A DNA stretch of 64,000 bases from an uncultured Myxococcales bacterium (GTDB taxonomy: Bacteria; Myxococcota_A; Polyangia; Fen-1088). The stretch lies in the NCBI GenBank assembly GCA_964443975.1, contig CAYUFS010000023.1:1953-65952 (forward strand), in the 5' to 3' direction. The notes under the pieces were generated by a model, which was given only the letters and a program-made list of their open reading frames with translations, searched no databases and had not been told where the DNA came from. The translations under genes and the position numbers were made by a program. Below are positions 1,253-17,782 of this stretch, piece by piece; within the stretch, counting starts at the first letter, position 1, and every line of letters begins with the position of its first letter.

Positions 1253-1272
1253 GCGGTGTCGCGGAGACCACC

Positions 1273-1674: not shown

Positions 1675-1733
1675 GCGGCGCTGCGTTCGACTCCCTGATG
1701 CTTGCGACGTATTCGAAAGGAACCTGAAGAGCG

Positions 1734-2363
1734 ATGGCGAATTACTCCGGACCGGTGTGCCGCCTTTGTCGGCGCGAAGACATGAAGCTGTTCCTGAAGG
1801 GCGACCGCTGCTACACGGACAAGTGCGGCTACGAGCGTCGCGCCTACGCCCCCGGACAGCACGGGCAGGCGCGCCGCCGGAAGGTGTCGAACTATGGGGC
1901 GCAGCTGCGTGAGAAGCAGAAGGTCAAGCGTATCTATGGTCTCGCCGAGCGTCAGTTCCGCGGCTACTACTACAAGGCCATCCGCATGAAGGGCGTGGCG
2001 GGCGAGAACCTGCTGCAGCTCCTCGAGCGTCGCCTGGATAACGTCGTTTACCGCATGGGGTTCGCCTCGGATCACGCCGAGGCCCGGCAGCTGGTGCGCC
2101 ACGGACACTTCCGCGTGAACGGCCAGAAGGTCAACATCCCGTCCTTTCTCTGCAAGGCCAATGACGCCATCGAGGTGAAGGACACGTCGAAGAAGGTCAC
2201 CCGCATCCTCGAGAGTTTGGGCGCCGTCGACCGCCGGGGCGTGCCCCGCTGGATGGAGCTCGACAAGGAAGGCTTCAAGGGTCGGTTGACCTCGCTGCCT
2301 TCGCGCGAGGACTTGACCCTGCCCATCCGCGAGCAGCTCATCGTCGAGTTGTACTCGCGCTGA
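1734..2363 (+). CDS. rpsD: 30S ribosomal protein S4
   Basis: 209-aa protein starting [31 protein letters not shown] (the S4 zinc-finger N-terminus) with a downstream S4 RNA-binding domain. Confidence 0.97.
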
Positions 2364-2441
2364 GCCGTCGTCCGTTTCTTTCACGGTTTGGTTAATGCGT
2401 CCACGAACCGTTTTTCGCTGCACACGTAAGAGGAGAGTTGA

Positions 2442-3491: not shown

Positions 3492-3498
3492 AAAGGCG

Positions 3499-3523
3499 CG
3501 CAGGGGGGACTTCGTCCCCCCTG
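3499..3523 (+). terminator. Perfect 11-bp GC-rich stem-loop between rpoA and rplQ; a candidate attenuator or terminator with no T-tract
   Basis: gcaggggggac-ttc-gtcccccctgc read directly from the sequence, 8 nt after the rpoA stop. Confidence 0.35.
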
Positions 3524-3675
3524 CGAGACCCCCCGGGGAGGGATCCGTGCCCGGATCTGCTCGTCGGGCGGCGTCTCCGGCGGGCTGAGCCCGCCTCCGA
3601 TCCGCTGGAAACCGGGTCGGCGATAGGCTTGTAGAAGTGAGTTTTTCGGGACGATTTTAGAAAGAGACGGACGTT

Positions 3676-4284
3676 ATGAGACATCGTAGAGCCGGAGTTC
3701 ACCTTTCACGGCCTTCTGCCCACCGCAAGGCGCTGTTTTCGAACCTGGTGGCGGCCCTGTTGACCAACGAGCGCATTCGCACGACGGACGCCAAGGCGAA
3801 GGAGACGCGCCGTCTGGCCGAGCGGACCATCACCTGGGCGCGTCGCGTGGGCGACATCCTCGTGAAGAAGGCCGACCGCCGAACGCCGGACGAGTCTGCC
3901 CGCGTCGTTCATGCGGTTCGGATGGCCCGCCGCGTGGTGCGCGACCGTACCGCCGTGACGAAGCTGTTCGACGACATCGCGCCGCGCTTCCTGGCGCGCC
4001 GCGGGGGCTACACCCGCATCGTCAAGATCGGCCAGCGCCCCGGTGACGCGGCGCCGATGTCGTTCCTCGAGCTGATTCCGGACGATGCCCCGAAGGCGGC
4101 GCCCGCGAGCAAGACGGACAAGCCGGTCAAGTCGGCAAAGACCGACAAGCCGGCCGCCAAGACCGAAAAGGCCCCGAAGGCGAAGGCCGAGGGTGCCGGC
4201 GCCGGCAAGGAAGCCAAGGCCAAGAAGTCCCCGGACGCGAAGGCCGAGCCAGCCGCCAAGAAGAAGCCCAAGTCCTCCGAGTAA
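3676..4284 (+). CDS. rplQ: 50S ribosomal protein L17 with a Lys/Ala/Pro-rich C-terminal extension
   Basis: N-terminal RAGVHLSRPSAHRKALFSNLVAALLTNERIRTT is the L17 signature. The last ~70 aa are a KAAPASKTDKPVKSAKT... low-complexity tail. Confidence 0.95.
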   Translation: MRHRRAGVHLSRPSAHRKALFSNLVAALLTNERIRTTDAKAKETRRLAERTITWARRVGDILVKKADRRTPDESARVVHAVRMARRVVRDRTAVTKLFDDIAPRFLARRGGYTRIVKIGQRPGDAAPMSFLELIPDDAPKAAPASKTDKPVKSAKTDKPAAKTEKAPKAKAEGAGAGKEAKAKKSPDAKAEPAAKKKPKSSE

Positions 4285-4513
4285 GGCCGGGCGTCGGACC
4301 GTCCGGGCCGCGAAGCCGTCAAGCAGGGGGTCACCGGGAGCGTCGGGTTCCTCGGCAGCTTGGCGGGCGGGGCGGTGGCCGGGCTCGCGTGCGGACCGGG
4401 AGCGCCCATCTGTGTTGGCGTCGGGTGTTTGCAGGTGGCCTTGTATTCGCGTTGGGCTCGGATTTTGCCTTTGACGAGATCTGGGAATAGCGTCGCCCCG
4501 CGCAAGTGCCCGG

Positions 4514-4981
4514 TTGGCTATGGAAGCGGTGCAGACATTCGCCATTCAGCCCCACGAAGGGACCAGCGGAGATTCGCGCCTGCTCGCCGAAGGAACCGCG
4601 ATCGGGCGCGTCGAGGGCCTGGTGCTCGAGGCGCAGTTTCGTTGTGGTCCCGGATACCTCGTCGTCACGTCGGACGGCAATCCATTCGAGGAGGGTCTTC
4701 ACTTCTACCTTCTTGACACCTCGTACGCTGTGCTCGACGACGTGTCGCTGGGCCGCATGTACCACGCTGGAATGTATCGCAACGTGATCGTCGGGCCGGA
4801 TCGCGACGCACTGGAGTTCGAGTTCTTCGGCAATGACCGCTGGCGGCTCTCGATCGCCAGCCAGCCACGCCGGACCTGGTTTCGGCGGCCATTCTCCGCG
4901 GTGACGCGGACCAGGAAGTGGCTGGCGCCGCACCGCCTCGATCTGCGGAAGGTCGAGCACCAGAGCCGCGCGGCACCTTGA
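4514..4981 (+). CDS. Hypothetical protein
   Basis: 155-aa ORF with balanced, protein-like composition (F/Y/E/D present) and no recognisable motif. The competing minus-strand ORF is Arg-rich. Confidence 0.45.
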   Translation: MAMEAVQTFAIQPHEGTSGDSRLLAEGTAIGRVEGLVLEAQFRCGPGYLVVTSDGNPFEEGLHFYLLDTSYAVLDDVSLGRMYHAGMYRNVIVGPDRDALEFEFFGNDRWRLSIASQPRRTWFRRPFSAVTRTRKWLAPHRLDLRKVEHQSRAAP

Positions 4982-5138
4982 CATAAAGACACGTCCCCAT
5001 CGTCGGGTTGGCGACCAAGGCAAGGTAGCTCGCGGTGCGTCGCGGTGAGCCGCCTCCTTCGGCCTTCAGTTTTACCCCCGGGCCGCCGAAGACTCTCTCG
5101 GACCGACCTATCCTAAAGGTGTCGGTCGAGGAGACTTC

Positions 5139-5531
5139 ATGAACTCAGGTGCTGTAGCCAAAGCCCCGGTCGTCGAGCCCCAGCAGCGAGCCGCCGAACG
5201 ACACAACGTCGAGGTCTCGGTCGATCTGGAGAGCGATTCCAATTTCTACACGGGCCTCACCCAGAACATCAGCGCGGGCGGGCTGTTCATCGCCACCCAC
5301 CAGATCAAGCGGGTGGGGGATCGCGTCCATTTGAAGTTCAACTTGCCGGGATCGTCGCGGGCGATCGAATGCGATACGGAGGTGCGCTGGATCCGCGAGA
5401 ACTCGTCGCTCCACCGCACGGACGGCGCCTCCGGAATGGGCGTCCGATTCATCGACATGTCCCCTGCCGACGCCGAGGCGATCCAGGCCTTCATCGAGAG
5501 CCGCGAGTCCCTGTTCTACGACGACGAATGA
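5139..5531 (+). CDS. PilZ-domain protein, a putative c-di-GMP receptor
   Basis: RxxxR...D-S-G-G pattern (RAAERHNVEVSVDLESDSNFYTGLTQNISAGGLFIAT) typical of PilZ. It is 34 nt upstream of the export-gate genes. Confidence 0.7.
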   Translation: MNSGAVAKAPVVEPQQRAAERHNVEVSVDLESDSNFYTGLTQNISAGGLFIATHQIKRVGDRVHLKFNLPGSSRAIECDTEVRWIRENSSLHRTDGASGMGVRFIDMSPADAEAIQAFIESRESLFYDDE

Positions 5532-5564
5532 CGAGGCCGGCGACCGGCCGGTGACCCACCGCGG

Positions 5565-5969
5565 TTGACTCGACGCGGGCTCCTGACGGATAACGCCGTG
5601 ATGGACAGCACGGGTTCGTTACCGGGGGTGGGGGGCTCGCTCGCCGTGTCGCTGGTGTCGCTGGGGGTCGTCTGCCTGATCGCGTACCTGGCGCTCAGGT
5701 TTCTCGGCCGGCGCGGCCTCGGCCGGCCGAATGGACCGATCAAGATCAGGGCGCGCTGCCCGCTCGAGCCGCGGCGGTGCCTGTACGTCGTCGAGACGGC
5801 CGGTCGCTGCTTCCTCATCGGCGTGGGTGACGGCCCCATGACCATGCTCGCCGAGCTGGGCCCGGCCGAGGTCCAGGCATCCCTGGCGGCCCCGCTCGAG
5901 CCGGGCGCGAAGTTCAGCGAGGTGCTCACGCGCGTACTCGGTCGCGGCGCGCGGTCGGAGCGGACATGA
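5565..5969 (+). CDS. FliO-like small membrane protein
   Basis: Single N-terminal TM helix (VSLVSLGVVCLIAYLALRF) followed by a FliO-like C-terminal region (LYVVETAGRCFLIGVGDGPMTMLAEL). Its stop overlaps the SctR/FliP start (ATGA). The start may instead be the internal Met at 5601. Confidence 0.5.
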   Translation: MTRRGLLTDNAVMDSTGSLPGVGGSLAVSLVSLGVVCLIAYLALRFLGRRGLGRPNGPIKIRARCPLEPRRCLYVVETAGRCFLIGVGDGPMTMLAELGPAEVQASLAAPLEPGAKFSEVLTRVLGRGARSERT

Positions 5970-6742
5970 GGCGGCCCGCGTTCGCGGCCGCGCTGACGGG
6001 CGGCTTGCTGGCCCCCCTGTGCGCGCACGCCGCCCGGACGAGCGCCGCTGCCGCCGCGACCGCTGGCGATGGGCTCACGGCGCGGCCGTTGCTGCTGTTC
6101 ATCGTGATGAGCGGGGTGGCGCTGGTGCCGTTCGCGCTGCTGATGACCACCTGCTTCGTCAAGGTGGCGGTGGTGCTGTCCATCCTGCGCAGCGCGATCG
6201 GCGTTCCCCAGGTCCCACCGACGCAGGTCATCACCGGGCTGGCGCTGATCCTCACCGCCTACGTGATGGCCCCCACCGCCGAGCGGACCTACGACGCCGT
6301 GAAGCCGGTCATGTCGCTTGGCGCGGGCGCCGATCTCGCCAGCGCCGCGACGGTGGATGCCCTTCAGCAAGCCGGTGCGCGCGCCAGCGAGCCCTTGCGC
6401 GCGTTCCTGTTGAAGCAGGCAGACCCGCGCGATCGCGCGACGTTTCATGGCCTCGCGCTGCGCATGCGGACGCCTGACCAGCGCGCGACGATCTCGGATC
6501 GCGATCTGATGGTGATCATTCCCGCGTTCGTGACCTCGGAGCTGAAGCGCGCATTCGAGATCGGGTTCTTGCTCTTCATTCCATTCCTCGTGCTCGACCT
6601 GGTCATCTCGAACCTCCTGCTGGCGCTCGGGATGCACATGCTGGCGCCGACGACGGTGTCGCTGCCGTTCAAGCTGCTGCTCTTCGTGCTCGCCGACGGG
6701 TGGCACCTGGTGGCCCGCGGGCTGGTCGAGAGCTACCTGTGA
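5966..6742 (+). CDS. sctR: Type III secretion / flagellar export apparatus protein, SctR/FliP family
   Basis: FALLMTTCFVKVAVVLSILRSAIGVPQVPPTQVITGLALILT is the FliP/YscR family signature, and the 258-aa length fits. Confidence 0.9.
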   Translation: MRRPAFAAALTGGLLAPLCAHAARTSAAAAATAGDGLTARPLLLFIVMSGVALVPFALLMTTCFVKVAVVLSILRSAIGVPQVPPTQVITGLALILTAYVMAPTAERTYDAVKPVMSLGAGADLASAATVDALQQAGARASEPLRAFLLKQADPRDRATFHGLALRMRTPDQRATISDRDLMVIIPAFVTSELKRAFEIGFLLFIPFLVLDLVISNLLLALGMHMLAPTTVSLPFKLLLFVLADGWHLVARGLVESYL

Positions 6743-6746
6743 CGTC

Positions 6747-7028
6747 ATGACCACGGTCGCCACGTCGTCCGAGCTGGTCCTGCGCGCCATCCACGAGGGG
6801 CTGTTACTGGCGCTGCTGGTGTCGGGGCCGCCGCTGCTGGCCAGCCTGCTGGTAGGCTTCGTCGTCGGGATCGTGCAGGCAGCGACGCAGATCCAGGATC
6901 AAGCGCTGGCGTTCGTCCCGAAGCTCGTGGTCGTGGTGGTGACCTTGCTCTCCGTCGGCCCCGTGCTGGGCACGCAGCTGGTCCGGTTCACGCAGGCGCT
7001 GTTGCTCGTCTTCCCTTCCATCAGGTGA
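6747..7028 (+). CDS. sctS: Type III secretion / flagellar export apparatus protein, SctS/FliQ family
   Basis: 93-aa two-TM protein (LLLALLVSGPPLLASLLVGFVVGIVQAATQIQDQALAFVPKL) matching FliQ/YscS. It lies 5 nt after sctR. Confidence 0.85.
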   Translation: MTTVATSSELVLRAIHEGLLLALLVSGPPLLASLLVGFVVGIVQAATQIQDQALAFVPKLVVVVVTLLSVGPVLGTQLVRFTQALLLVFPSIR

Positions 7029-7086
7029 GTGGCGGGCAAATGGGTGGTCGCAAAATGATACTCCGGCCCCTGGGGGCCCGCCGCGC

Positions 7087-7899
7087 GTGATCTCGCCGGG
7101 AGGGGACCGGGAGCGTTGGCTCCTCGCGGTGGGCCTTGGCGCCGCGCGGACGGTGCCGCTTTGCTGGGCCGTCCCCGCGGTCGGCGGGCCGCGCGTCGCG
7201 CCCGAGGTGCGGGCGGGGCTGGGGATCGTGTTGGCCGTCCTCTGCTTGCCGGCGTTGCTCCCCGCGGTGGACACGTCCGTGAGCGCCGCGCCTGGCCCCG
7301 TCGGCTGGACGCTCGTGCTCGCGCGCGAGCTCCTCGTCGGCCTGACCGTCGGCCTCTGCGTTGGGGCGGGCTTTCGCGCCGCCGAGGCGGCGGGGCGGCT
7401 CGCCGATCTCGCCCGCGGCGCCAACCTGGCCGAGGTGTTGTCGCCGATGTCGGACGAGCGCACCAGTCCAACCGGCGATCTCTATCTGTTCGTCGCGGTG
7501 ATCGTGTTCCTCGAGCTGGGTGGGTTGCGAGTGTTCGCGCAAGCGCTCGGGCGGAGCTACGAGGCGGTGCCCGTGGGCGCGTCCTCCGCCCTGTTTCCGG
7601 GCGGCCTGCGGGCCGCCGTGGCGCTAGTCACGGCGGCGGTGGCCAAGCTCATGGAGGCGGCGCTCGGGCTGGCGGCGCCCGTGCTGGTCGCAGCGTTGCT
7701 GGCCGACGCGACGCTGGGCCTGGTGGCGCGCGCCGCACCCCAAATTCCAATCTATTTCGCCGCCATGCCAGCGAAGGCGCTGCTCGGACTCGGCGTGTCG
7801 TTGGTTGGCGTGGGCGCCATCGAGGCCGTGTTCGCCGGGGGCTTTCACGCCTGGGCCGCGATGTTCGACCAGGCCGTCGCCGCATGGCGGCCGAGATAG
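7087..7899 (+). CDS. sctT: Type III secretion / flagellar export apparatus protein, SctT/FliR family
   Basis: 270-aa polytopic membrane protein in the conserved R-S-T order. It probably starts at a GTG. The hydrophobic profile and length match FliR/YscT. Confidence 0.8.
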   Translation: MISPGGDRERWLLAVGLGAARTVPLCWAVPAVGGPRVAPEVRAGLGIVLAVLCLPALLPAVDTSVSAAPGPVGWTLVLARELLVGLTVGLCVGAGFRAAEAAGRLADLARGANLAEVLSPMSDERTSPTGDLYLFVAVIVFLELGGLRVFAQALGRSYEAVPVGASSALFPGGLRAAVALVTAAVAKLMEAALGLAAPVLVAALLADATLGLVARAAPQIPIYFAAMPAKALLGLGVSLVGVGAIEAVFAGGFHAWAAMFDQAVAAWRPR

Positions 7900-7978
7900 G
7901 CAGCGAGATAACGCCGGTGTTCTTCGACGCCCCGAACGGCGATCTTCAGGCCCGGGCGGCTCCTGTCGAAGGACAGCT

Positions 7979-9029
7979 CATGCCGATGGGGTGGCGCAGG
8001 CCCGCTGCTGGGCTGAGAGTCGGGGTGGCGATCGTCTTGATCGCCGGGGTGGTGGCGCGCGCGCGCGGCGCTTCGGCGGCGGGGGCGGCGACCGACCCCG
8101 ACGCCTTCGACGATCCCAAGCTCGCGCGCGAGCCGGCGCCGTTTGCCCCGTCCGCCCCCGCCGCGAAGGCGCCGGAGCCAACGGTCGCGCCAGGGCCCGT
8201 CCCGACGCCTGCTCCGCCGAAGGTCGCCCCTCCTGCGTCCGCGCCGGTCCAGGCGCTCTCGCCGTCGCCTCCCGCCCCGTTGCCTGCGCCGCCGCCGCCG
8301 CCGAAGCTCGCCACGCCGGCGCCAGGTCCCGTCGCCGTGCCAGCGTCGGGTGTCGCGCCGCCGCCGCCTGTCTCGGCGTCTCCGGTGGACAGACCGGCCG
8401 CGCCGTCGCCGCAACCCCAACCGCTTCCGGCCGCGCCGCCGCGGCCGTCGCCGGCCGCAAGCGGTTCCCCGTCAGCCGACCTCAGCGTGAAGGCGCCCCC
8501 TCCCGCAGAGCCAGCTCCCACCGGAGCCTGGCCTTACGCGCCTCGGCTGAAGCTCAGCTATCGACGGTTCTCGTTTTCACGTATGCCCGCGACGGGGACC
8601 TCGTCCACCGCGGCGCCCGTCCCCGAGTCGTTCGAGAGCTTCGGCCTCGATTTCTATCCCATGTCCTGGTACCTGCGCGTCGGTTTCTCGTCGCAGTTCG
8701 GCTGGGAGAGCGGACAGTTTCAACGAACCGGCGATTACTTTCTGGCCGAGTCGGCGTCCGCGGGATTTCAGATTCCAGGCCGATTCACGCCGTTCGCGGA
8801 GGCGTTCGCAGGCGCGGGCTACATGCGCCGCTTCCAGAACGGCGCCACGTCGCCCTCCGCGTACTGGCAGACGGGCGTGGACGCGGGGGTCGAGATCTAT
8901 TTCGCGAAACGCGCCTACGGCAGCGTCGCTCTCGGGTATCTCCACCCGGGTAACCTGTTCCTGCAACAGAAGAACCTGTCGTCGGTGAACGCCGATACGT
9001 GGTCCCTGAAGGTCGGCATCGGCATCTGA
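7979..9029 (+). CDS. Hypothetical membrane-anchored proline-rich protein with a beta-rich C-terminal domain
   Basis: ATG at 7979 gives an N-terminal TM helix (MPMGWRRPAAGLRVGVAIVLIAGVVA), then about 170 aa of Pro/Ala repeats (PAPPKVAPPASAP...), then a C-terminal ~170-aa domain of alternating hydrophobic residues (FGLDFYPMSWYLRVGFSSQFGW...SLKVGIGI). The part of ORF 7116..9029 upstream of 7979 is Arg-rich and presumably not translated. Confidence 0.55.
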
Positions 9030-9107
9030 CCGGGGCTCGCCCGGCTCGCCAGCCCCCAGGATCTGGGGCAATCTCCTCCCAACGTGGCGACGAAGGGGCA
9101 GGTTTGA

Positions 9108-10241
9108 TTGGCGCGGTCGGGCGCTGAACCCACCGAACGACCCACGCCGCGGCGGTTGCTGAAGGCGCGGCAGGGGGGACACGTGCCCATCAGCCGCGAT
9201 CTCTCCTCGGCGATTGTCTTCCTGGCGCTCGGTGGACTGCTGTGGGGTGGGGCGGCGACCGGGGTGGGCCGCCTGCTGGGCTTGTTCCGGGCGACGTTCG
9301 CCGCGCCCTTCGGGTCCTCGATGGCGACGGCGGCGCTGGCCGCGCGCGCGTTCGATGTCGCGATGGCGCTGGTGCTTCCTCCGGTCGTCGTGGCGTGCGC
9401 CGGCGCGCTGCTGGTAGGGGCGCTGCAAACGCGGGGGTTGTTTGCCTGGCGGGCCGTCGCGACCGACGTGACGCGTTTGTCGCCGGCCGTCGGAATGGCA
9501 CGCGTCTTCAGCCCGAAGACGGCCGGCGACATCGCGCAGGGCGTGGTGAAGGTCTTCGTCGTGGCGGCGGCGGCGGTCGTGGGTGTCGAAGCATTGCTGC
9601 GCGGGCTACCGGCTCTGGTCGGGGCGGCGCCCGGCGCGGTGCTGGCCGTGCTCGGTCTCGAGGCGCGGGATCTGGCGATCCGCGGGGCCATGGCGTTCCT
9701 GGCGCTGGGCATTCTCGATGGGGTGCTCGGGCACCGGCGGCACCGCCGGTCGTTGCTGATGACTCGCGAGGAGGTGAAGCGGGACTTGAAGGAGGCCGAG
9801 GGCGACCTGCGCCACAAAGCCGAGCGCCAGCGTCTGCACCGGCAGCTCGGCGAGCGACGACTGAACGAGGATGTCCGAAGCGCGACCGCTGTCGTGGTGA
9901 ACCCCGAGCACATCGCCGTGGCCATCCGCTACGACCGTGATGGGGATCAGGCGCCGGTGGTGCTGGCGAAGGGCGAGCGGCTGCTCGCCGAACGTATCAA
10001 GCAGGTCGCCCGCGAGGCAGGCGTGCCGATCTATCGCGACGTCGCGCTGGCGCGCGCGCTTCACCAGCTCGACGAGGGTGAGGAAATCCCCCAGCCCCTT
10101 TACGAGTCCGTCGCCGAGCTGCTGCGCATGCTGTGGGAGCTCGAGCGCAAGCCGGCGACTTCACCCGCCGTCGCGGTCACCGCGACGGTCACTGATCGAC
10201 CGGACGGCCCGCCCCCGGCAAGCGGCGGACGACGCGTCTGA
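9108..10241 (+). CDS. sctU: Type III secretion / flagellar export switch protein, SctU/FlhB family
   Basis: FlhB-like N-terminus (EPTERPTPRRLLKARQGGHVPISRDLSSAIVFLA) and an autocleavage site NPEHIAVAIRY (the NPTH-type motif). Probable TTG start. Confidence 0.88.
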   Translation: MARSGAEPTERPTPRRLLKARQGGHVPISRDLSSAIVFLALGGLLWGGAATGVGRLLGLFRATFAAPFGSSMATAALAARAFDVAMALVLPPVVVACAGALLVGALQTRGLFAWRAVATDVTRLSPAVGMARVFSPKTAGDIAQGVVKVFVVAAAAVVGVEALLRGLPALVGAAPGAVLAVLGLEARDLAIRGAMAFLALGILDGVLGHRRHRRSLLMTREEVKRDLKEAEGDLRHKAERQRLHRQLGERRLNEDVRSATAVVVNPEHIAVAIRYDRDGDQAPVVLAKGERLLAERIKQVAREAGVPIYRDVALARALHQLDEGEEIPQPLYESVAELLRMLWELERKPATSPAVAVTATVTDRPDGPPPASGGRRV

Positions 10242-10271
10242 GCCGACGACGACGACGAGGAGCGAAGTCAC

Positions 10272-11243
10272 GTGCGTCGACGACAAGCGAGGCTGGAAAA
10301 CCATCACGGGTTCGAGGGCCGGGTCGTCGCCTTCATCCGTCTGGGGCGTCCGCAGTTCCTGGTGGGCGGATTCCTGCTCTACGGGCTCGGCGCGGCGGTC
10401 GCTTGCGCTGCCGTGGCGGGGGTGACGCTCGACGCGCGAACGTACCTGCTCGGACAGGCGGGCATCACCGCCATCCAGCTCATGACCCACTACGCGAACG
10501 AATACTTCGATCTCGGCGCCGATCGAGCCAACCTCACGCCGACCGAATGGTCGGGTGGCAGCCGCGTCCTCGTCTCGGGGGCCCTGTCGCCTCAGGTGGC
10601 CCTGCGCGCGGCGCAGGTGCTGAGGGCTCTCGGGGTCCTGCTCGCCGCGGCCGTATTCTTCGCGGGCGGCCGCGGCGGAAGGGTGGCCGCCGGCGCGCTG
10701 GTCGGCGCGCTGATCCTTGCGTGGGCATACAGCGCGCCCCCGCTTCGGCTGCATTCGCGGGGACTCGGCGAGGTCACGACGGCGATCGTCGTGACGGGCC
10801 TGACGCCGCTCGTCGGATTCGTGCTGCAGTCGGGAGGTCTGGCCGGAGCAGGCGGTCTCGCGCGGGCGTTGCTGCCGCTCGCCGGATTGCAGCTGGCGAT
10901 GTTGCTGGCCATCGAATTTCCAGACGCCGCGGGCGATGCGGCGGCGGGCAAACGAACGCTGGTGGTGAAGCTTGGCGCACGCGTCGCCGCCGCCGTGTAC
11001 CGCGCGCTTCTGGTCGCGATCTATGGCGCGATCCCCCTGCTCCTCATTGGCGGGCTGCCGGGCGGCGCGGCGGGCGCGGCCGCGTCGCTCGCCCCTGTGG
11101 CCGCGTGGCAATTCTGGGTGCTCGGCCGCGGCGCCTGGGGTGATGCGCGGCAATGGGAAGGCATGGCGTTCCGGGCCGTGGCGATGCTGATCGGCACCAC
11201 CGCAGCCGAGCTGGCCGCGTTCCTCTGGATCATTTGGCGGTAG
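10272..11243 (+). CDS. UbiA-family aromatic prenyltransferase
   Basis: Polytopic membrane protein with an Asp-rich motif NEYFDLGADRAN (NDxxDxxxD-like) and a second Asp-rich region (FPDAAGDAAAG). The 323-aa length fits. GTG start 28 nt after sctU. Confidence 0.8.
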   Translation: MRRRQARLENHHGFEGRVVAFIRLGRPQFLVGGFLLYGLGAAVACAAVAGVTLDARTYLLGQAGITAIQLMTHYANEYFDLGADRANLTPTEWSGGSRVLVSGALSPQVALRAAQVLRALGVLLAAAVFFAGGRGGRVAAGALVGALILAWAYSAPPLRLHSRGLGEVTTAIVVTGLTPLVGFVLQSGGLAGAGGLARALLPLAGLQLAMLLAIEFPDAAGDAAAGKRTLVVKLGARVAAAVYRALLVAIYGAIPLLLIGGLPGGAAGAAASLAPVAAWQFWVLGRGAWGDARQWEGMAFRAVAMLIGTTAAELAAFLWIIWR

Positions 11244-11348
11244 GCGCCGACAGCCTCCCAGGCCGCCGGTTCGACGATGACGCGTTTCGAGGACGAAACG
11301 GGCGCCGGGTGATTGGAGCGTGACTTTCATTGAGCCTGGGTCCCCGAC

Positions 11349-12467
11349 GTGTCAGGTTGTCCCCGGGAGGACCTATTGCCTGTCATCACCAGCGTCGCCA
11401 CCGCGGTCCCGAGGTTCTCGGCGACGCAGGACGAGACCAAGGCGGCGTTCGGACCACTGTTCGGGCTCGAGGGCCGTCGATTCGAAGCGACGATGTCGCT
11501 GTTCGACAACGCGGAGGTGGGCACACGCTACAGCGTGTTGCCGCTCTCCGAGCTGGTCCTGACCCGCTCCCTCACGGAGACGATGCGCCTCTATGCGGAC
11601 CACGTGCGCCGCCTCGGCGAGAGCGTGGCCCGCGCCTGTCTCGCCCAGGTGGCGATGTCGCCGGAGGCGCTCGACCTGATCGTCTCGGTGTCTTGCACGG
11701 GCGTCATGATCCCCTCGGTCGACGCGTTCCTGATGGATGCCCTCGGGACGCGCCGGGACGTGGTGAGGCTGCCCATCACCGAGCTCGGGTGCGTGGGCGG
11801 CGCCGCCTCGGTGGCGCGGGCCAACGACTTCTTGCGGGCGCACCCCGACCGGCGCGCGCTGGTCCTGGCCATCGAGCTGCCCAGCCTCAGCCTGCAACGG
11901 CGCGACGTCTCCATGGACAACCTGGTCGCGTCCGCCTTGTTCGGCGACGGCGTCGCGGCCGTGCTGATGGTCGGTGACGCCACGCCCGAGGCGATCGCCG
12001 CGCAGGCGGGCGGGTCGGCGCGCACCGGGGCAATCCGGATCGTCGATACCCTGTGCCACACCCGGCCGAGCAGCACCGATGCCCTGGGGTTCGATCTACA
12101 CGAGGACGGCTTTCATGCGGTGCTGGCGAAGCAGGTCGCCGGCATCGTGCGCGCCGATCTGTACGCGCTCGTGCAGCGGTTGACCGAGCGGGCGAACATC
12201 GACCCTGGCAAGCTCGGCGCGTTCGTCCTGCATCCCGGTGGGAAGAAGATTCTCGGCGCGGCCGAGGAGGCGCTTGGCCTGACGCGCGAACAGACCCAAC
12301 CATCGTGGGATGTCCTGCGCGCGTATGGCAACCAGTCGAGCGCCTCGGTGCTGTTCGTGCTCGACCGCTGGATGACCGCACGTCGGCCGGCGCGCGGTAC
12401 GCAGGGCGTGATGGCGGCGTTCGGGCCGGGGCTGACCACGGAGCTTTCGCTGCTCGAATGGCTATGA
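11349..12467 (+). CDS. Type III polyketide synthase, chalcone/stilbene synthase superfamily (RppA/SrsA-like)
   Basis: Catalytic Cys context SVSCTGVMIPS, plus GCVGG, HPGGKKIL, YGNQSSASVLFVL and FGPGLT. It aligns well by eye with bacterial RppA/Srs-type enzymes. An alternative TTG start at 11376 is preceded by GGGAGG. Confidence 0.9.
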   Translation: MSGCPREDLLPVITSVATAVPRFSATQDETKAAFGPLFGLEGRRFEATMSLFDNAEVGTRYSVLPLSELVLTRSLTETMRLYADHVRRLGESVARACLAQVAMSPEALDLIVSVSCTGVMIPSVDAFLMDALGTRRDVVRLPITELGCVGGAASVARANDFLRAHPDRRALVLAIELPSLSLQRRDVSMDNLVASALFGDGVAAVLMVGDATPEAIAAQAGGSARTGAIRIVDTLCHTRPSSTDALGFDLHEDGFHAVLAKQVAGIVRADLYALVQRLTERANIDPGKLGAFVLHPGGKKILGAAEEALGLTREQTQPSWDVLRAYGNQSSASVLFVLDRWMTARRPARGTQGVMAAFGPGLTTELSLLEWL

Positions 12468-13072
12468 CACCCGAAGTGTGGTGGTTCGTGGGGTTGCTCT
12501 GCGCGGTGGGCGTGGGGCGGCTCGTCGAGATGCGTGTGTCGCGCCGACATCAGAAGCGTCTGGCAGCGGTGGGACTCAATCGCGCCCGCGAGCCGGCGTT
12601 CGGGCTGATGGTGTTGCTCCACGCGGGGGTGCTGGTGGGGGTGGCGCTAGAGGTCGTCATCGCGCGCCGCCCGTTGCTCCCGTGGCTGGCCCTGCCATCG
12701 CTGGCCGCGTTCGTGCTGGCGAATATGTTGCGGCTCTGGGTCATCCGCACCCTGGCGGAGCACTGGAACGTGAATGTCGTCAACTCCCTCGCGCTGGGGA
12801 TCGTGACCTCCGGGCCTTACCGGTGGGTGCGCCACCCCAACTACGTGGCTGTGTTCGTCGAGCTCGTGGCGCTGCCCCTCGTGCACACGGCGTACGTCAC
12901 GGCGCTCTTCGGGGCGGCTCTGCACCTCGTGGTCCTCGGTCGCCGGCTGGCGGTCGAGGACGGCATCTTGCTCGCCGATCCGGGTTACCGGGCGGCGATG
13001 GCGGGGAAGCCCCGGTTTCTGCCGCAGCTCGGGGAGCTGTTGTCGTCGTCGGCGCGGGTGCCACCCGCATGA
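12458..13072 (+). CDS. Isoprenylcysteine carboxyl methyltransferase (ICMT)-family membrane methyltransferase
   Basis: GPYRWVRHPNY motif with a C-terminal E...L in a multi-TM protein. The ATG overlaps the PKS stop by 10 nt, indicating translational coupling. The ORF-track entry 12053..13072 is an upstream extension. Confidence 0.8.
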   Translation: MAMTPEVWWFVGLLCAVGVGRLVEMRVSRRHQKRLAAVGLNRAREPAFGLMVLLHAGVLVGVALEVVIARRPLLPWLALPSLAAFVLANMLRLWVIRTLAEHWNVNVVNSLALGIVTSGPYRWVRHPNYVAVFVELVALPLVHTAYVTALFGAALHLVVLGRRLAVEDGILLADPGYRAAMAGKPRFLPQLGELLSSSARVPPA

Positions 13073-14220
13073 ACGCGGATGTGTTGATCGCGGGCGGGGG
13101 ACCGGCCGGGTCGGCGCTCGCGATCCTCGCGGGGCGGGCGGGCCACTCGGTCTCGCTGTTCGACGGCGCGCGGTTTCCGCGCGAGAAGCCTTGCGGAGAA
13201 GGCCTGATGCCCTCCGGGGTCGGCGCGCTCGAGCGCCTCGGGCTCGCGGCGGCCACCGGAGGCGTGCCAATCGGCGGCATTCGCTACCACGGATTTGGCC
13301 TCACCGCGGAGACGGCGTTTCCGGCTCCCCGCCCGGGGCGTGGCCGCGTTGGTCCAGCCGCGCACGGTCTCGGTCAGCGACGGATCGTCTTCGACGACGC
13401 GCTGTGGGCGGCGGCGCGGGCGACGCCGAATGTGCGCGTGTTCGAGGACGCCGCGGTGGAAGGGGTCGTGTGTCGGGCGGGCCGGGCCGTCGGGCTGCGG
13501 GTCGCGGGGCAGACTGTCTCGGGTGGACTGATGGTGGGCGCGGACGGCGCGCGGTCGGTGGTGCGGCGCGCGGTGGGGTTGGAAGGGCCGCGCACCGAAC
13601 GTCCCCGCTGGGGCCTGCGCATGCACTTCCGGCTGGCCGCCGATCGGCCGGCGCCCAATTTCGTCGAGGTGTTCGTCGGTGACGGCCACGAGCTCTACCT
13701 GACGCCTTTGCCCGCGGGCGAGGTGCTGGTCGCGGTGCTGAGCGCGCACGGGCACCACGAGGATCGCCCGGCGCAGACCTTGCGGGCGTTCATCGACCGG
13801 CACCCGGCGCTCGTCGAGCGCCTGCGCGGGGCCGAGGCGGTGTCGGCGCCCCGGGGCCGCTCGCCGCTCGCCTCGACGGCGCGCGCGGGCGTTGCCCCGG
13901 GGGTGGTGCTGCTCGGCGACGCGGCCGGGTTCACCGATCCGCTCACCGGCGGCGGGATGGCGCAGGCGTTGCTGTCCGCCGAGCTGCTCGCTCCCTACCT
14001 GGGGCGGGCGCTCGGGGAGCGCGACGACGAATGGTTGTGGCGCTTCGATCGGCGGCGGCGCGCGATGCTGCGCGACTATGTCTGGCTCACGCGGTTGATG
14101 GTGCGCGCGGCCGGGCGTCCGCTGCTGGCGCGCGGCACTCTGAAGGCGATGCGGGCCTCCCCGGCGCTGATGCGGCACCTGGTCGGCGTGGCGGCGGGCC
14201 TGCGCCGCATCATCTTCTAA
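13069..14220 (+). CDS. FAD-dependent oxidoreductase, a flavin monooxygenase / geranylgeranyl-reductase-like fold
   Basis: N-terminal dinucleotide fold MNADVLIAGGGPAGSALAILAGRAGHSVSLFD, plus GADGARSVVRR and GDAAGFTDPLTGGGM motifs. ATGA overlap with the methyltransferase stop. Confidence 0.8.
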   Translation: MNADVLIAGGGPAGSALAILAGRAGHSVSLFDGARFPREKPCGEGLMPSGVGALERLGLAAATGGVPIGGIRYHGFGLTAETAFPAPRPGRGRVGPAAHGLGQRRIVFDDALWAAARATPNVRVFEDAAVEGVVCRAGRAVGLRVAGQTVSGGLMVGADGARSVVRRAVGLEGPRTERPRWGLRMHFRLAADRPAPNFVEVFVGDGHELYLTPLPAGEVLVAVLSAHGHHEDRPAQTLRAFIDRHPALVERLRGAEAVSAPRGRSPLASTARAGVAPGVVLLGDAAGFTDPLTGGGMAQALLSAELLAPYLGRALGERDDEWLWRFDRRRRAMLRDYVWLTRLMVRAAGRPLLARGTLKAMRASPALMRHLVGVAAGLRRIIF

Positions 14221-14312: not shown

Positions 14313-15220
14313 ATGCGCGTGCGTAAAGCGGTGATGCCGGTGGCGGGGCTGGGAACGCGGTTTCTTCCCGCGACGAAGGCGGTGCCCAAGGAGATGCTGC
14401 CCATCGTGGACGTCCCGACGGTGCAGTTGAACGTCGAGGAGTGCGTGGCGAGCGGCATCGAAGAGATCATCTTCGTGACCGCGCGGGGCAAGGGCGCCAT
14501 CGAGGACCACTTCGATCGGGCCGCCGAGCTGGAGGCGTTGCTCGAGCGCAAGGGCCGCAAGAGCGAGCTCGAGACGATCCGGAAGCTCACGACGATGGCG
14601 AAGTTCGTTTCGGTCCGCCAGGGCGAGGCGCGCGGTCTCGGTCACGCGGTGCTGTGCGCGCGCGAGGCCATCGGCGACGAGCCGTTCGCGGTGCTGCTCG
14701 GTGATGACCTGTTCGTGGGCCAACCGCCGGGACTGGCGCAGCTCCTGGCCGTCTACGATCGCCAGGGCGTGGGCGTGGTCGGGCTGCAAGAGGTACCCGC
14801 CGGGCAAGAACACCTCTACGGTATCGTGGGCGGGGAGCGGATCGACGACGGGGCCACCGGGGACCGCAATGGGTTGAAGCCGACGCTGCGTCTCTCGAAG
14901 CTGGTCGAGAAGCCGGCGCCAGGGACAGCGCCGTCGCGACTGGCGATCATCGGTCGATACGTGCTGCCTCCCGAGATCTTTCCCATCCTCGAACGCACGC
15001 CGCCGGGCCGCGGGGACGAGATCCAGCTGACCGATGCGATGGCGACCCTCTGCGCCGAGCAGGGAATGTGTGGCGTCGAGCTCGCGGGCCGGCGCTTCGA
15101 CGCCGGGGATCGGTCGGGCTACGTGCTGGCGGTGCTGTATCACGCGCTTCGACGGGCGGACATCGGCGCCGAGGTGCAAGCGGGAGCCGAGCGCCTGCTG
15201 GCCGAGCTGCGCGCCAGCCA

Positions 15221-15224
<4 letters not shown>
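14313..15224 (+). CDS. galU: UTP--glucose-1-phosphate uridylyltransferase
   Basis: VMPVAGLGTRFLPATKAVPKEMLPIVD N-terminal signature and VEKP motif. 304 aa. Confidence 0.9.

Positions 15225-17782
<2,558 letters not shown>

What the first reader, a model, noticed from the sequence alone, without database searches (positions are those of the whole stretch)
5139..10241. Isolated export-gate module of a type III secretion / flagellar-type system joined to the ribosomal alpha operon
PilZ, a FliO-like protein, SctR/FliP, SctS/FliQ, SctT/FliR, a proline-rich membrane protein and SctU/FlhB form one compact co-directional unit directly downstream of rpoA-rplQ.

Within at least 10 kb on either side there is no SctV/FlhA, ATPase, SctJ, SctQ or secretin gene. 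Upstream is the ribosomal operon and downstream a polyketide operon. The lineage is presumably non-flagellated, so a FliO-like gene, which non-flagellar injectisomes usually lack, suggests a relic or repurposed flagellar-type gate.

The PilZ gene 34 nt upstream suggests c-di-GMP control.
Basis: partly seen in the sequence, partly recalled or inferred. Interest (0 to 1): 0.75.

Follow-up and report, generated by a model that had tools for sequence, protein, structure and literature searches.

The report
Stand-alone type III export-gate operon
An uncultured soil myxobacterium (class Polyangia) keeps only the inner-membrane core of a type III secretion machine, as an intact operon beside its ribosomal genes, with the large partner protein SctV apparently encoded alone elsewhere, so it looks like a naturally pared-down, scattered secretion core and not a dead relic.

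Summary
Window 5139-10241 encodes PilZ, FliO, SctR/FliP, SctS/FliQ, SctT/FliR, a proline-rich protein and SctU/FlhB, all full length (Pfam E 1e-12 to 4e-85). No SctV, ATPase, ring, needle or secretin gene occurs in the 64-kb window.

The order rpoA-rplQ-[PilZ]-FliOPQR-[0-3 secreted proteins]-FlhB-...-priA recurs in at least 25 Polyangia/Myxococcales MAGs (FlhB 42-64% identical). None has SctV/N/L/Q within 10 kb.

All genes are under purifying selection (dN/dS 0.11-0.37), so this is not a relic.

FliP groups with the needle-less Myxococcus T3SS gate (100% bootstrap), not with flagellar or Ysc/Spa proteins. FliO in Myxococcota T3SS is already published.

The "proline-rich membrane protein" is a secreted protein. 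It has a Pro-rich tether and a C-terminal 8-stranded outer-membrane beta-barrel (AF2 pLDDT 89.6; NspA/OmpX/OmpA-like).

The PilZ c-di-GMP motifs are invariant, but PilZ occurs in only one subclade.

Related Polyangia carry lone, shortened SctV (FHIPEP) genes among housekeeping genes. One such contig, from the same study, matches the window's tetranucleotide signature.

Best reading: a dispersed, core-only export apparatus. This is a new variant of a known kind. A whole-genome check for the ATPase and ring genes is still needed.

The parts
3676..4284 (+). rplQ (ribosomal protein L17), last gene of the alpha operon. It is the conserved upstream anchor of the module.
   Evidence: PF01196 E=2e-31. 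rpoA-rplQ lies directly upstream of the module in all class A loci that are long enough to show it.
4520..4981 (+). Contig-specific ORF of 153 codons in the rplQ-PilZ spacer. Function unknown; probably not part of the module.
   Evidence: No Pfam hit. No homologue in any related locus. In the relatives L005 and L008 the spacer is only about 200-270 nt.
5139..5531 (+). PilZ-domain protein of 130 aa, a putative cytoplasmic c-di-GMP receptor. Accessory gene of the PilZ-bearing subclade.
   Evidence: PF07238 E=1e-18 and TIGR02266 85 bits, above its cut-off. RxxxR and NxSxGG are invariant in 13 orthologues. dN/dS 0.15-0.19. A GAGGAG ribosome-binding site precedes the ATG.
5601..5969 (+). FliO homologue with a single TM helix plus the FliO domain. 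By analogy with Salmonella and Bacillus it is an assembly scaffold for the SctR/FliP pentamer. An alternative upstream TTG start lies at 5565.
   Evidence: PF04347 E=4e-12; TIGR03500 50 bits, just below its cut-off. The ATG at 5601 and the ARCPLEPRR...GVGDGPM core are conserved in 19 orthologues. Its stop overlaps the fliP start (5966-5969). dN/dS 0.15-0.18.
5966..6742 (+). SctR/FliP, the main subunit of the export-gate core.
   Evidence: PF00813 E=3e-65; NF009438 (SctR subfamily) 247 bits, above its cut-off; the fliP equivalog falls below its cut-off. Best PDB match is Salmonella FliP 6f2d, E=4e-45. The gasket region reads GMHM where Salmonella has GMMM. In the NJ tree it forms a clade with the Myxococcia T3SS gates at 100% bootstrap. 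dN/dS 0.17-0.19.
6747..7028 (+). SctS/FliQ.
   Evidence: PF01313 E=5e-25. fliQ 78.6 bits against sctS 64.8 bits, both below their cut-offs. dN/dS 0.19-0.23.
7087..7899 (+). SctT/FliR.
   Evidence: PF01311 E=2e-45. sctT 139 bits against fliR 118 bits, both below their cut-offs. dN/dS 0.21.
7980..9029 (+). 'Xb', a secreted accessory protein. It has a signal peptide, a conserved DDPK(L/V)AR motif, a proline-rich linker of about 200 aa, and a C-terminal domain of about 165 aa predicted to be an 8-stranded outer-membrane beta-barrel.
   Evidence: No Pfam or NCBIfam hit. The family has only 60 members among 5.8 billion proteins; three listed hits have the same longest-contig length as a call-20 FlhB hit, and one looked up lies inside a module. 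AF2 on a 41-sequence alignment gave pLDDT 89.6 and pTM 0.81, all beta. Top Foldseek PDB hits are NspA, OpcA, OprF-N, OmpW, OmpX, OmpA and Ail. dN/dS 0.11-0.20. The start at 7980 is preceded by GAAGGA.
9108..10241 (+). SctU/FlhB, the gate-associated switch protein, with an N-terminal TM domain and a cytoplasmic autocleavage domain (NPEH).
   Evidence: PF01312 E=4e-85 across the full model. NP(D/E)H is present in 14 of the 15 aligned clade members (P0017 reads GLEH) and also occurs in the solved Vibrio FlhB 8z5s. Class A forms a 97%-bootstrap clade. dN/dS 0.34-0.37, the least constrained gene of the set.
10272..14220 (+). UbiA prenyltransferase, type III polyketide synthase and FAD monooxygenase. 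This is a lineage-specific insertion between flhB and priA, not part of the secretion module.
   Evidence: PF01040, PF00195/PF02797 and PF01494. Present only in the window, L005 and L008. Other class A loci have an NTP-transferase gene in that slot.
15068..17782 (+). priA (primosomal helicase), the conserved downstream anchor of the module.
   Evidence: PriA_3primeBD, DEAD, Zn_ribbon_PriA and PriA_C domains. priA follows flhB in class A loci and in many class B loci.

Best explanation
The locus is a working, vertically inherited operon for the inner-membrane core of a type III secretion export apparatus. It belongs to the Myxococcota-specific lineage whose best-known member is the needle-less T3SS* of Myxococcus xanthus.

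Proposed mechanism:
- FliO scaffolds assembly of an SctR5-SctS4-SctT1 helical gate, and one SctU wraps its base. This is inferred from the solved Salmonella, Vibrio and Shigella complexes.
- The large subunit SctV is not linked. It is encoded alone at another housekeeping locus.
- The organism therefore carries a dispersed, 'core-only' apparatus (O, R, S, T, U plus V). No needle, secretin, ring or ATPase gene lies near either part.
- Such a core could move proteins across the inner membrane using the proton-motive force.

In the window's subclade two accessories were added:
- A PilZ protein, which would couple activity or assembly to c-di-GMP.
- An outer-membrane 8-stranded barrel whose long proline-rich N-terminal arm could reach back across the periplasm towards the gate.

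Shown here: gene identities, intactness, purifying selection, conserved synteny, phylogenetic placement, the barrel fold, and the existence of lone SctV genes in relatives.

Inferred: complex stoichiometry, partnership with the lone SctV, the energy source, what PilZ and the barrel protein do, and the substrates.
For: - Full-length family matches for all five gate genes and for PilZ.
- The FliP gasket region and the FlhB NPEH cleavage site are conserved; NPEH is also present in the solved Vibrio FlhB.
- The fliO stop overlaps the fliP start, and only 4 nt separate fliP from fliQ.
- Synteny rpoA-rplQ-[PilZ]-fliOPQR-[X]-flhB-...-priA holds in at least 25 MAGs with FlhB 42-64% identical.
- dN/dS is 0.11-0.37 for every gene.
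- FliP clusters with the Myxococcia T3SS gates at 100% bootstrap.
- No SctV/N/L/O/P/Q lies within 10 kb in any class A locus, nor anywhere in the 64-kb window.
- Short FHIPEP proteins (about 600-663 aa) carry the source names Labilithrix, Polyangiaceae and Myxococcota.
- All four of these looked up are lone genes among housekeeping genes. Many more high-GC lone copies turned up in metagenomes.
- Contig L173 comes from the same JGI study series as the window and carries a lone FHIPEP gene between DoxX and DUF1415-accA-miaA-mutL.
- L173's tetranucleotide distance to the window is 0.0124. That equals the same-genome median and is below all 40 pieces from class A relatives and below all other SctV loci.
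- The L173 synteny is kept in a relative, L123.
- ATPase-independent, PMF-driven type III export is documented in Salmonella (PMC4230889, listed).
- The CORE concept (FliOPQR-FlhB-FlhA acting apart from the rest of the flagellum) and the existence of orphan CORE genes are published (PMC6456723).
Against: - The link between the lone SctV contig and the window's genome rests only on composition and a shared study series. It is not a shared scaffold or bin.
- Absence of the ATPase, SctJ/D rings, SctQ or flagellar genes from the rest of the genome was not tested. Only about 64 kb plus about 12 kb of a genome that could be on the order of 10 Mb (a guess from typical myxobacterial genome sizes; not measured here) was seen.
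- No expression or protein data exist.
- The trees are neighbour-joining on modest alignments. In the FlhB tree the Polyangia clade does not group with the Myxococcia T3SS.
- dS may be distorted by the strong GC3 bias.
- No type III gate is known to work without a surrounding MS or SctJ/D ring.
Confidence: 0.6

Rival explanations
1. This is one piece of a complete but scattered machine. The same genome would also encode the ATPase complex, SctJ/D or FliF rings, a C-ring and perhaps rod or needle parts at other loci, as Chlamydia does. The module would then be just the R-S-T-U operon of an otherwise ordinary needle-less T3SS* or flagellum.
For: - Scattered but complete T3SSs are known (PMC3459982).
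- SctV evidently lies elsewhere, so other parts could too.
- One paper reports multiple V and R copies in Polyangia genomes (PMC11509652).
- Only a small fraction of the genome was inspected.
Against: - The four lone SctV genes looked up individually, L173 and its syntenic relative L123 have no ATPase, ring or C-ring gene within 10 kb.
- No flagellum-specific or ring gene lies near any of about 25 module loci.
- Two surveys of Myxococcota MAGs report T3SS gene sets as largely confined to Myxococcia/Myxococcaceae.
- FliP does not group with the flagellar proteins.
Confidence: 0.2
2. This is a stand-alone, repurposed gate. FliOPQR-FlhB would work without SctV or an ATPase in some non-secretory or novel role, for example as an envelope-spanning scaffold together with the outer-membrane barrel protein, or as a platform for membrane protrusions.
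For: - The module carries its own envelope accessories: Xa lipoprotein, Xb outer-membrane barrel with tether, Xc periplasmic protein, plus PilZ. These form a compact unit.
- Some Polyangia keep only FlhB next to priA, which hints at functions outside a full apparatus.
- CORE-dependent nanotube formation has been proposed (PMC6456723).
Against: - In all studied systems export needs FlhA/SctV (established knowledge).
- Lone SctV genes exist in the same class of bacteria, and probably in this population.
- The cytoplasmic FlhB domain is the most conserved part of the protein, as expected if it still docks substrates or partners.
- To my own knowledge, the nanotube role of CORE is disputed in the field.
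Confidence: 0.15
3. This is a decaying relic of an ancestral flagellar or T3SS cluster, retained by chance next to essential genes.
For: - Most partner genes are missing locally.
- Earlier literature called the Myxococcus systems degenerate.
- FlhB is evolving faster than the other genes, and the window copy lacks the clade's C-terminal W[KR]R[AV] motif.
Against: - All frames are intact with full-length domain coverage.
- dN/dS is 0.11-0.37.
- The same gene order is kept in at least 25 genomes across deep divergence.
- Key motifs are conserved.
- New accessory genes have been gained inside the operon.
Confidence: 0.03

Closest known systems
Needle-less T3SS* (MXAN_2434-2464) and T3SS(2) of Myxococcus xanthus; the 'Myxo' NF-T3SS family of Abby & Rocha 2012
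   Same: - Same phylum.
- The gate includes a FliO homologue followed by R-S-T-U in the same order.
- No secretin or needle genes.
- FliP is 54-58% identical and forms one 100%-bootstrap clade with these gates.
   Different: - The Myxo loci carry SctV, SctN, SctL, SctO/P, SctQ and SctJ/I in one cluster. Here none of these is linked.
- This module sits at a fixed housekeeping position (rplQ...priA).
- It carries PilZ and an outer-membrane barrel protein instead of TPR chaperones.
- It lacks the separate small FlhB_C-like gene seen in the Myxococcia loci.
- FlhB is only about 34% identical and does not group with the Myxo clade.
CORE complex (FliO, FliP, FliQ, FliR, FlhB, FlhA) as a functional unit apart from the flagellum, and 'orphan CORE' genes (Bhattacharya et al. 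2019, PMC6456723)
   Same: - The gene set matches the CORE definition exactly once the lone SctV is counted.
- The paper already notes bacteria, Myxococci included, that keep CORE genes while lacking much of the rest.
   Different: - There CORE is part of a full flagellar operon and was studied in flagellated species.
- Here it is split across two housekeeping loci in a presumably non-flagellated lineage.
- It comes with lineage-specific envelope and c-di-GMP accessories.
- No functional data exist for this system.
Residual flagellar T3SS of the non-flagellated predator Lysobacter enzymogenes OH11 (PMC7277350, PMC7688988)
   Same: A type III export apparatus retained and used for other purposes (toxin export, control of twitching) in a non-flagellated, predatory soil bacterium.
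   Different: OH11 retains clearly flagellar genes, including the ATPase FliI and hook-related substrates. The present module is of the Myxococcota NF-type and has no linked ATPase.
Bacterial flagellar fliOPQR-flhB(-flhA) operon (for example the Bacillus fla/che operon, and Salmonella)
   Same: - Gene order O-P-Q-R-FlhB.
- The best solved-structure matches are flagellar FliP and FlhB (157 and 150 bits, against 131 and 97 bits for SpaP and SpaS).
   Different: - No flhA follows flhB.
- No flagellum-specific genes are nearby.
- All four NCBIfam flagellar equivalogs score below their cut-offs.
- FliP does not cluster with the flagellar references.
Small 8-stranded outer-membrane barrels (NspA, OmpX, Ail, the OmpA and OprF N-domains, OmpW), for the proline-rich protein
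   Same: The predicted fold of the C-terminal 165 aa matches these barrels at Foldseek probability 1.0, TM up to 0.73.
   Different: - No sequence-family hit.
- The domain order is the reverse of OmpA: short conserved N-terminal motif, then a long Pro-rich linker, then the barrel.
- The last residue is I or L, not the usual aromatic.
- The family is confined to this operon.

Membership tests
T3SS core export gate (SctRST/FliPQR + SctU/FlhB) | Full-length SctR/FliP, SctS/FliQ and SctT/FliR homologues encoded together | tested here: met
   PF00813 3e-65, PF01313 5e-25 and PF01311 2e-45, each covering nearly the whole model. PDB hits to the FliPQR and SpaPQR complexes.
T3SS core export gate (SctRST/FliPQR + SctU/FlhB) | SctU/FlhB with four N-terminal TM helices and a cytoplasmic NPxH autocleavage domain | tested here: met
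   PF01312 4e-85, model positions 2-334 of 335. NPEH is present, as in the solved Vibrio FlhB. Cleavage itself cannot be tested here.
Complete T3SS export apparatus | SctV/FlhA (FHIPEP) belonging to the same system | tested here: inconclusive
   Absent from the window and from within 10 kb in about 25 homologous loci. Lone FHIPEP genes exist in related Polyangia, and on a compositionally matching contig from the same study.
Complete T3SS (injectisome or flagellum) | ATPase complex (SctN/L/O), inner-membrane rings (SctJ/D or FliF) and cytoplasmic ring (SctQ or FliM/N) | tested here: not met
   None in the 64-kb window, none near any class A locus, and none near the lone SctV genes examined individually. 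Genome-wide presence cannot be tested with these tools.
'Myxo' NF-T3SS / T3SS* family | Gate proteins fall in the Myxococcota-specific clade | tested here: met
   FliP: class A plus Myxococcia T3SS gates form a clade at 100% bootstrap, excluding the Ysc, Spa and flagellar references. FlhB is inconclusive: the Polyangia clade stands apart.
'Myxo' NF-T3SS / T3SS* family | One locus holding R, S, T, U, V plus the ATPase, SctJ and SctI (short form), or additionally SctD, Q and L (long form) | tested here: not met
   Definition from PMC3459982 and PMC10433427. The Myxococcia loci L031, L036 and L046 show the full set of seed homologues (SctL/N/O/P/Q/V), and L040 and L069 most of it, whereas class A loci show none.
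'Myxo' NF-T3SS / T3SS* family | FliO homologue in the locus; no secretin or needle genes | tested here: met
   PF04347 hit. FliO is reported for both M. xanthus systems. No secretin or needle family was found in the window.
Flagellar T3SS | Proteins reach the curated flagellar equivalog thresholds, and flagellum-specific genes (FlgB/C, FliE/F/G, MotAB) are present | tested here: not met
   TIGR01103 fliP scores 201.7 (cut-off 217). TIGR01402 fliQ scores 78.6 (cut-off 88.9). TIGR01400 fliR scores 118 (cut-off 168.6). TIGR00328 flhB scores 237.6 (cut-off 349). No flagellar families occur in the window.
PilZ c-di-GMP receptors | PilZ domain with the RxxxR and (D/N)xSxxG binding motifs | tested here: met
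   PF07238 1e-18. RAAER and NISAGG are present, and both motifs are invariant in 13 orthologues. Ligand binding cannot be tested here.
8-stranded outer-membrane beta-barrels (OmpX/NspA/OmpA-N type) | Signal peptide; antiparallel 8-stranded barrel fold; C-terminal beta-signal ending in an aromatic residue | tested here: inconclusive
   The fold criterion is met: pLDDT 89.6, with top hits NspA, OprF-N, OmpW and OmpX. A signal-peptide-like N-terminus is visible by eye. There is no Pfam OMP hit, and the family ends in GIGI or GIGL, not an aromatic.

The most novel reading that the evidence does not exclude
Uncultured Polyangia may run a natural minimal type III export machine made only of the CORE proteins. 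These would be FliO-SctRST-SctU beside the ribosomal operon and a shortened SctV at a second housekeeping locus. The machine would have no ATPase, no MS or SctJ/D ring, no C-ring, no needle and no secretin. In one subclade it would be wired to c-di-GMP through a dedicated PilZ protein. It would be joined to the outer membrane by a private barrel-plus-proline-tether protein, together with the Xa lipoprotein and the Xc periplasmic protein. That would be a living example of the stripped-down export core that models of flagellum and injectisome evolution postulate.
Probability: 0.3. Interest if true: 0.8.

Novelty: new variant of a known kind. Interest (0 to 1): 0.55.

Why it matters
Two questions in type III secretion remain open: what is the smallest set of parts that can still export protein, and what did the machine look like between the flagellum and the injectisome?

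The Myxococcus needle-less T3SS* is already treated as an intermediate form. This Polyangia system goes further:
- Only the membrane core is kept.
- The core is split over two housekeeping loci.
- It is conserved and under selection in dozens of genomes.
- It is decorated with its own outer-membrane tether and a c-di-GMP receptor.

If whole-genome scans confirm that the ATPase and rings are absent, these organisms, or the genes expressed in a host, would give a natural test bed for PMF-only, ring-less type III export and for c-di-GMP control of it.

If the missing parts turn up elsewhere, the finding shrinks to an unusual case of operon scattering. Even then it would extend the known range of Myxococcota-type T3SS to Polyangia.

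Tried and rejected
**Searches for SctV that failed or gave little**
- A homologue search with a Myxococcia SctV query was saturated by Myxococcia proteins at 83% identity or more, so it said nothing about Polyangia.
- Cluster names for the top ten SctV representatives gave no Polyangia link. The later batches did.
- P0241 (63% identical SctV) was tested as a possible missing partner. It lies in its own full T3SS*-like cluster with R-S-T-U, so it was rejected.
- I looked for homologues of Xa, Xb or Xc, or of any gate gene, next to the lone SctV genes. None were found.

**Annotation attempts on the accessory proteins**
- Pfam, NCBIfam and PDB-sequence searches on Xa, Xb, Xc and ORF 4520-4981 found nothing.
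- The afdb50 fold library was not available.

**Regulatory signals**
- The promoter and terminator scan of 3400-11500 gave nothing above shuffled expectation. No + strand terminator was seen between rplQ and PilZ.
- The Rfam scan of 1-20000 found only a tRNA, with no riboswitch or leader near the module.

**Literature**
- Supplement searches for per-genome T3SS gene tables found no entry for Sorangium or Haliangium and no KO table.

**Technical**
- The first tree attempt timed out. It was redone with a faster distance method.

**Ideas considered and dropped**
- That NPEH in place of NPTH marks a dead FlhB. Rejected because the solved Vibrio FlhB has NPEH.
- That the Sutterella and Desulfovibrio loci were flagellar references. 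Their FlhB/SctU groups at 100% bootstrap with a plasmid-borne SctU of Nitratidesulfovibrio; I take this group to be the 'Desulfo' NF-T3SS family of Abby & Rocha, so they were treated as non-flagellar.

Full report
**1. The observation**

The window is about 70% G+C. Its + strand carries, in order:
- map, rpsM, rpsK, rpsD, rpoA, rplQ;
- an 855-nt spacer;
- PilZ (5139-5531), FliO (5601-5969), SctR/FliP (5966-6742), SctS/FliQ (6747-7028) and SctT/FliR (7087-7899);
- a proline-rich ORF (7980-9029);
- SctU/FlhB (9108-10241).

Every family match covers essentially the whole model, with E-values from 4e-12 to 4e-85, so the gene identifications are secure.

Downstream lie UbiA, a type III polyketide synthase, an FAD monooxygenase and PriA.

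Pfam scans of all sizeable ORFs in the rest of the 64 kb found no SctV, ATPase, ring, needle or secretin. tblastn with Myxococcia SctL/N/O/P/Q/V seeds found none either.

**2. Source organism and recurrence of the arrangement**

The FlhB protein is identical to one on JGI contigs of up to 91 kb. One of them is Ga0265320_10000069 (90,253 bp) in metagenome 3300031240. Its relatives are named only as Polyangia, Myxococcales or Proteobacteria MAGs. No cultured species appears above about 42% FlhB identity.

I looked up the contigs that encode homologues. I also scanned 185,579 species genomes and mapped all loci locally. The same layout recurs in at least 25 genomes: rpoA-rplQ-[PilZ]-fliO-fliP-fliQ-fliR-[0-3 ORFs]-flhB-(NTP-transferase or the UbiA/PKS insert)-priA-fmt-rsmB. 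I call these class A. Their FlhB is 42-64% identical to the window's.

None of these loci has an SctV/N/L/O/P/Q homologue within 10 kb. The Myxococcia T3SS loci fetched in the same scan show SctL-N-O-P-Q-FliO-R-S-T-U...SctV together.

**3. Relic or functional?**

Against the two closest relatives (L008, L005), dN/dS values are:

| Gene | dN/dS |
|---|---|
| PilZ | 0.15-0.19 |
| FliO | 0.15-0.18 |
| FliP | 0.17-0.19 |
| FliQ | 0.19-0.23 |
| FliR | 0.21 |
| Barrel domain (Xb) | 0.11-0.20 |
| FlhB | 0.34-0.37 |

These values lie in the range of the neighbouring rplQ and PKS genes.

Functional landmarks are kept:
- The FliP TSELK...IGF...FIPFL...DL core and the gasket region are present (GMHM where Salmonella has GMMM).
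- The FlhB cleavage motif reads NP(D/E)H in 14 of the 15 aligned clade members. The solved Vibrio FlhB also has NPEH, so this motif does not indicate decay.
- The fliO stop overlaps the fliP start (5966-5969), which suggests translational coupling.

The relic reading is rejected.

**4. Which kind of type III system?**

The curated NCBI models place the proteins between the two worlds. SctR passes the SctR-subfamily cut-off while the fliP equivalog does not. FliQ scores slightly higher as fliQ. SctT and SctU score slightly higher as the NF types. All flagellar equivalogs fall below their cut-offs.

Against solved structures, the flagellar FliP and FlhB score above SpaP and SpaS.

Neighbour-joining trees with 100 bootstraps give more resolution:
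- **FliP.** Class A plus the Myxococcia T3SS gates form one clade at 100%. This clade excludes YscR, Spa24 and the flagellar-type references. Inside class A, the PilZ-bearing subclade has 93% support and the PilZ-less subclade 94%.
- **FlhB.** Class A is a 97% clade. It joins a wider Polyangia FlhB clade at 78% that stands apart from the Myxococcia T3SS clade.

The gate therefore belongs to the Myxococcota-specific T3SS lineage that Abby & Rocha placed at the base of the non-flagellar systems. It is a separate Polyangia branch of that lineage.

FliO is already documented in both M. xanthus non-flagellar systems (PMC12403147).

**5. The accessories**

Loci with PilZ always have a 0.76-2.9 kb insert between fliR and flhB. 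Loci without PilZ have fliR abutting flhB. The insert encodes up to three conserved secreted proteins:
- Xa, a lipoprotein;
- Xb, the window's proline-rich protein;
- Xc, a Met-rich periplasmic protein.

The window, L005 and L008 keep only Xb. None of the three has a Pfam, NCBIfam or PDB-sequence match.

Xb has only 60 relatives among 5.8 billion proteins. Three listed hits have the same longest-contig length as a call-20 FlhB hit, and the one looked up lies inside a complete module. An AlphaFold2 model of its C-terminal 177 residues, built from a 41-sequence alignment, is confident (pLDDT 89.6, pTM 0.81) and all beta. Its best PDB matches are NspA, OpcA, the OprF N-domain, OmpW, OmpX, OmpA and Ail.

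Xb is therefore predicted to have a signal peptide, a conserved DDPK(L/V)AR motif, a proline-rich linker of roughly 70-300 residues and an 8-stranded outer-membrane barrel. This is OmpA-like in logic but reversed in domain order. By inference only, its N-terminal arm could span the periplasm towards the gate.

The PilZ protein has RxxxR and NxSxGG invariant in all 13 orthologues. c-di-GMP input is therefore plausible, but only for this subclade.

**6. Where is SctV?**

A direct homologue search was swamped by Myxococcia proteins.

A search of the 50%-identity representative library with a Myxococcia SctV brought up many shortened FHIPEP proteins of roughly 540-700 aa at 44-54% identity. Most members of the four named clusters are 606-663 aa. 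Source names for their clusters include Labilithrix sp., Polyangiaceae bacterium and Myxococcota bacterium.

One of these proteins matches injectisome SctV better than FlhA in the PDB. It keeps the TM domain and the C-terminal subdomains.

All four of these proteins that I looked up are lone genes among housekeeping genes: uvrB/tsaD, ddl, purA, and an OPT transporter. They sit on contigs of 63-72% G+C with no R/S/T/U/N nearby.

A metagenome scan with their alignment found many more lone high-GC copies.

One of them, L173, is contig Ga0265313_10000036, from the same JGI series as the window. It carries a lone FHIPEP gene (E=2.7e-203) between DoxX and DUF1415-accA-miaA-mutL. Its tetranucleotide distance to the window compares as follows:

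| Comparison with the window | Tetranucleotide distance |
|---|---|
| L173 | 0.0124 |
| 12.7-kb pieces of the window itself | median 0.0125, range 0.010-0.026 |
| 40 pieces from class A relatives | minimum 0.0136 |
| Next-best other SctV locus | 0.0233 |

A relative, L123 (SctV 72% identical), keeps the same DoxX-V-DUF1415-accA...miaA-mutL synteny.

This is circumstantial evidence. It does make it likely that the window's own population encodes SctV alone at a second housekeeping locus.

**7. Synthesis**

The best-supported picture is a dispersed, core-only export apparatus, with O-R-S-T-U at rplQ...priA and SctV elsewhere. It has no linked ATPase, rings, needle or secretin.

Published work shows two relevant points:
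- Type III export can run on the proton-motive force without the ATPase (PMC4230889, listed).
- The six 'CORE' proteins have been proposed to act as a unit outside the flagellum, and orphan CORE genes have been noted (PMC6456723).

Non-flagellated predatory Lysobacter also reuses a residual flagellar T3SS.

What the Polyangia system exports is unknown. Whether it truly lacks rings and an ATPase genome-wide is also unknown. Two MAG surveys report T3SS gene sets as mainly confined to Myxococcia. One paper mentions V and R copies in Polyangia.

**8. Limits**

- Only about 64 kb plus one 12.7-kb candidate contig of this genome were seen.
- All relatives are MAGs.
- The trees are distance-based.
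- dS is affected by GC3 bias.
- Gene starts are inferred from conservation.
- No expression data were available.

**9. Verdict**

The module is isolated, and its placement immediately downstream of the ribosomal alpha operon is conserved (co-transcription untested); both points hold. It is not a relic, FliO is not diagnostic, and SctV is probably encoded elsewhere.

It is a new variant of a known kind: a Polyangia branch of the Myxococcota-type T3SS reduced to its membrane core, with private accessories. Interest is moderate to good, and would be high if the minimal, ring-less, ATPase-less reading is borne out.

Noticed in passing
window 4520-4981 (+): A 153-codon ORF sits in the rplQ-PilZ spacer. 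It has no Pfam hit and no homologue in any related locus. It looks like a contig-specific insertion that lengthens the spacer from about 200-270 nt in relatives to 855 nt here.
   Followed up: partly
window 10272-14220 (+): UbiA prenyltransferase, a type III PKS and an FAD monooxygenase are inserted between flhB and priA, only in the window, L005 and L008. L005 also has a methyltransferase. From memory (not tested here) the gene set resembles alkylresorcinol/alkylquinone (srs-type) phenolic-lipid clusters. Only 30 nt separate the flhB stop from the UbiA start.
   Followed up: partly
window 18828-21044: A tRNA gene (18828-18899; Rfam 63 bits) is followed by a PIN-domain toxin gene (19256-19645) and, on the opposite strand, a weak, sub-threshold AbiEii-like match (18.3 bits, cut-off 22.5) at 20442-21044. 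G+C drops to about 0.66 over this stretch. It may be a small integrated island.
   Followed up: no
L030, L068, L057, L049, L061, L037, L081, L085 (Polyangiaceae, Labilithrix and Sandaracinaceae MAGs): These genomes carry a lone FlhB (37-44% identical to the window's). The three ORFs inspected (L030, L068, L057) are full length at 342-370 aa. In several of these genomes, such as L030, L068 and L081, it lies directly upstream of priA. No fliOPQR is nearby. Together with class A they form a Polyangia FlhB clade (78% bootstrap). The flhB-priA linkage seems older than the rplQ linkage.
   Followed up: partly
L094, L095, L096/L097, L100/L101, L173, L123, and many of L102-L181: A family of shortened SctV/FHIPEP proteins occurs as single genes among housekeeping genes on high-GC, Myxococcota-like contigs. 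The named clusters are mostly about 600-663 aa, and the L173 copy about 660-680 aa. In the NJ tree they form a poorly resolved, long-branched group, distinct from Myxococcia SctV and from the flagellar-type FlhA references.
   Followed up: partly
L035 (Myxococcales MAG SMAG_U4749), with L073 and L076: This is a second V-less gate lineage, sister to the Myxococcia T3SS* gates. Its order is peptidase M16 - prmA - rsmE - C39-like peptidase (887 aa) - fliO-P-Q-R-flhB - three unknown ORFs - an FlhB_C-like protein. No SctV or ATPase lies within 10 kb. It is again next to translation-related housekeeping genes.
   Followed up: partly
L001 7837-9982; L091 9237-11506; L018, L021: Two further operon-private secreted proteins with no known family occur here. 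Xa is a lipoprotein of about 190 aa. Xc is a Met-rich periplasmic protein of about 240-250 aa, 50-83% identical between genomes. Xc is the most widespread of the three accessories but is absent from the window.
   Followed up: partly
L046 10259-10549; L031, L036, L040, L069; L092 4110-4391: Myxococcia-type T3SS loci carry a separate small gene of about 93-97 aa homologous to the C-terminal FlhB domain, just downstream of the full-length sctU. Class A modules lack it.
   Followed up: no
window 10230-10241, and alignment A1: Most of the 14 aligned homologues (12 of 14) end in W[KR]R[AV]; P0115 ends WTRV and P0017 stops before this region. The window copy ends GGRRV. The window's subclade also shows faster FlhB evolution (61% identity to L008, against 83% for FliP).
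   Followed up: no
L039, L041, L048, L058, L071 (Sutterella); L047, L050, L052, L070, L074 (Desulfovibrio and relatives): The FlhB/SctU of the gut Sutterella and Desulfovibrionaceae loci included in the tree (L039, L048, L047, L050) groups at 100% bootstrap with the plasmid-borne SctU of Nitratidesulfovibrio vulgaris. I take this to be the 'Desulfo' non-flagellar T3SS family, not flagella.
   Followed up: no
window 30723-32786 (-): A 687-aa protein carries the full DUF1587/1595/1592/1588/1585 (PSD/PSCyt) domain series. It is unrelated to the finding.
   Followed up: no
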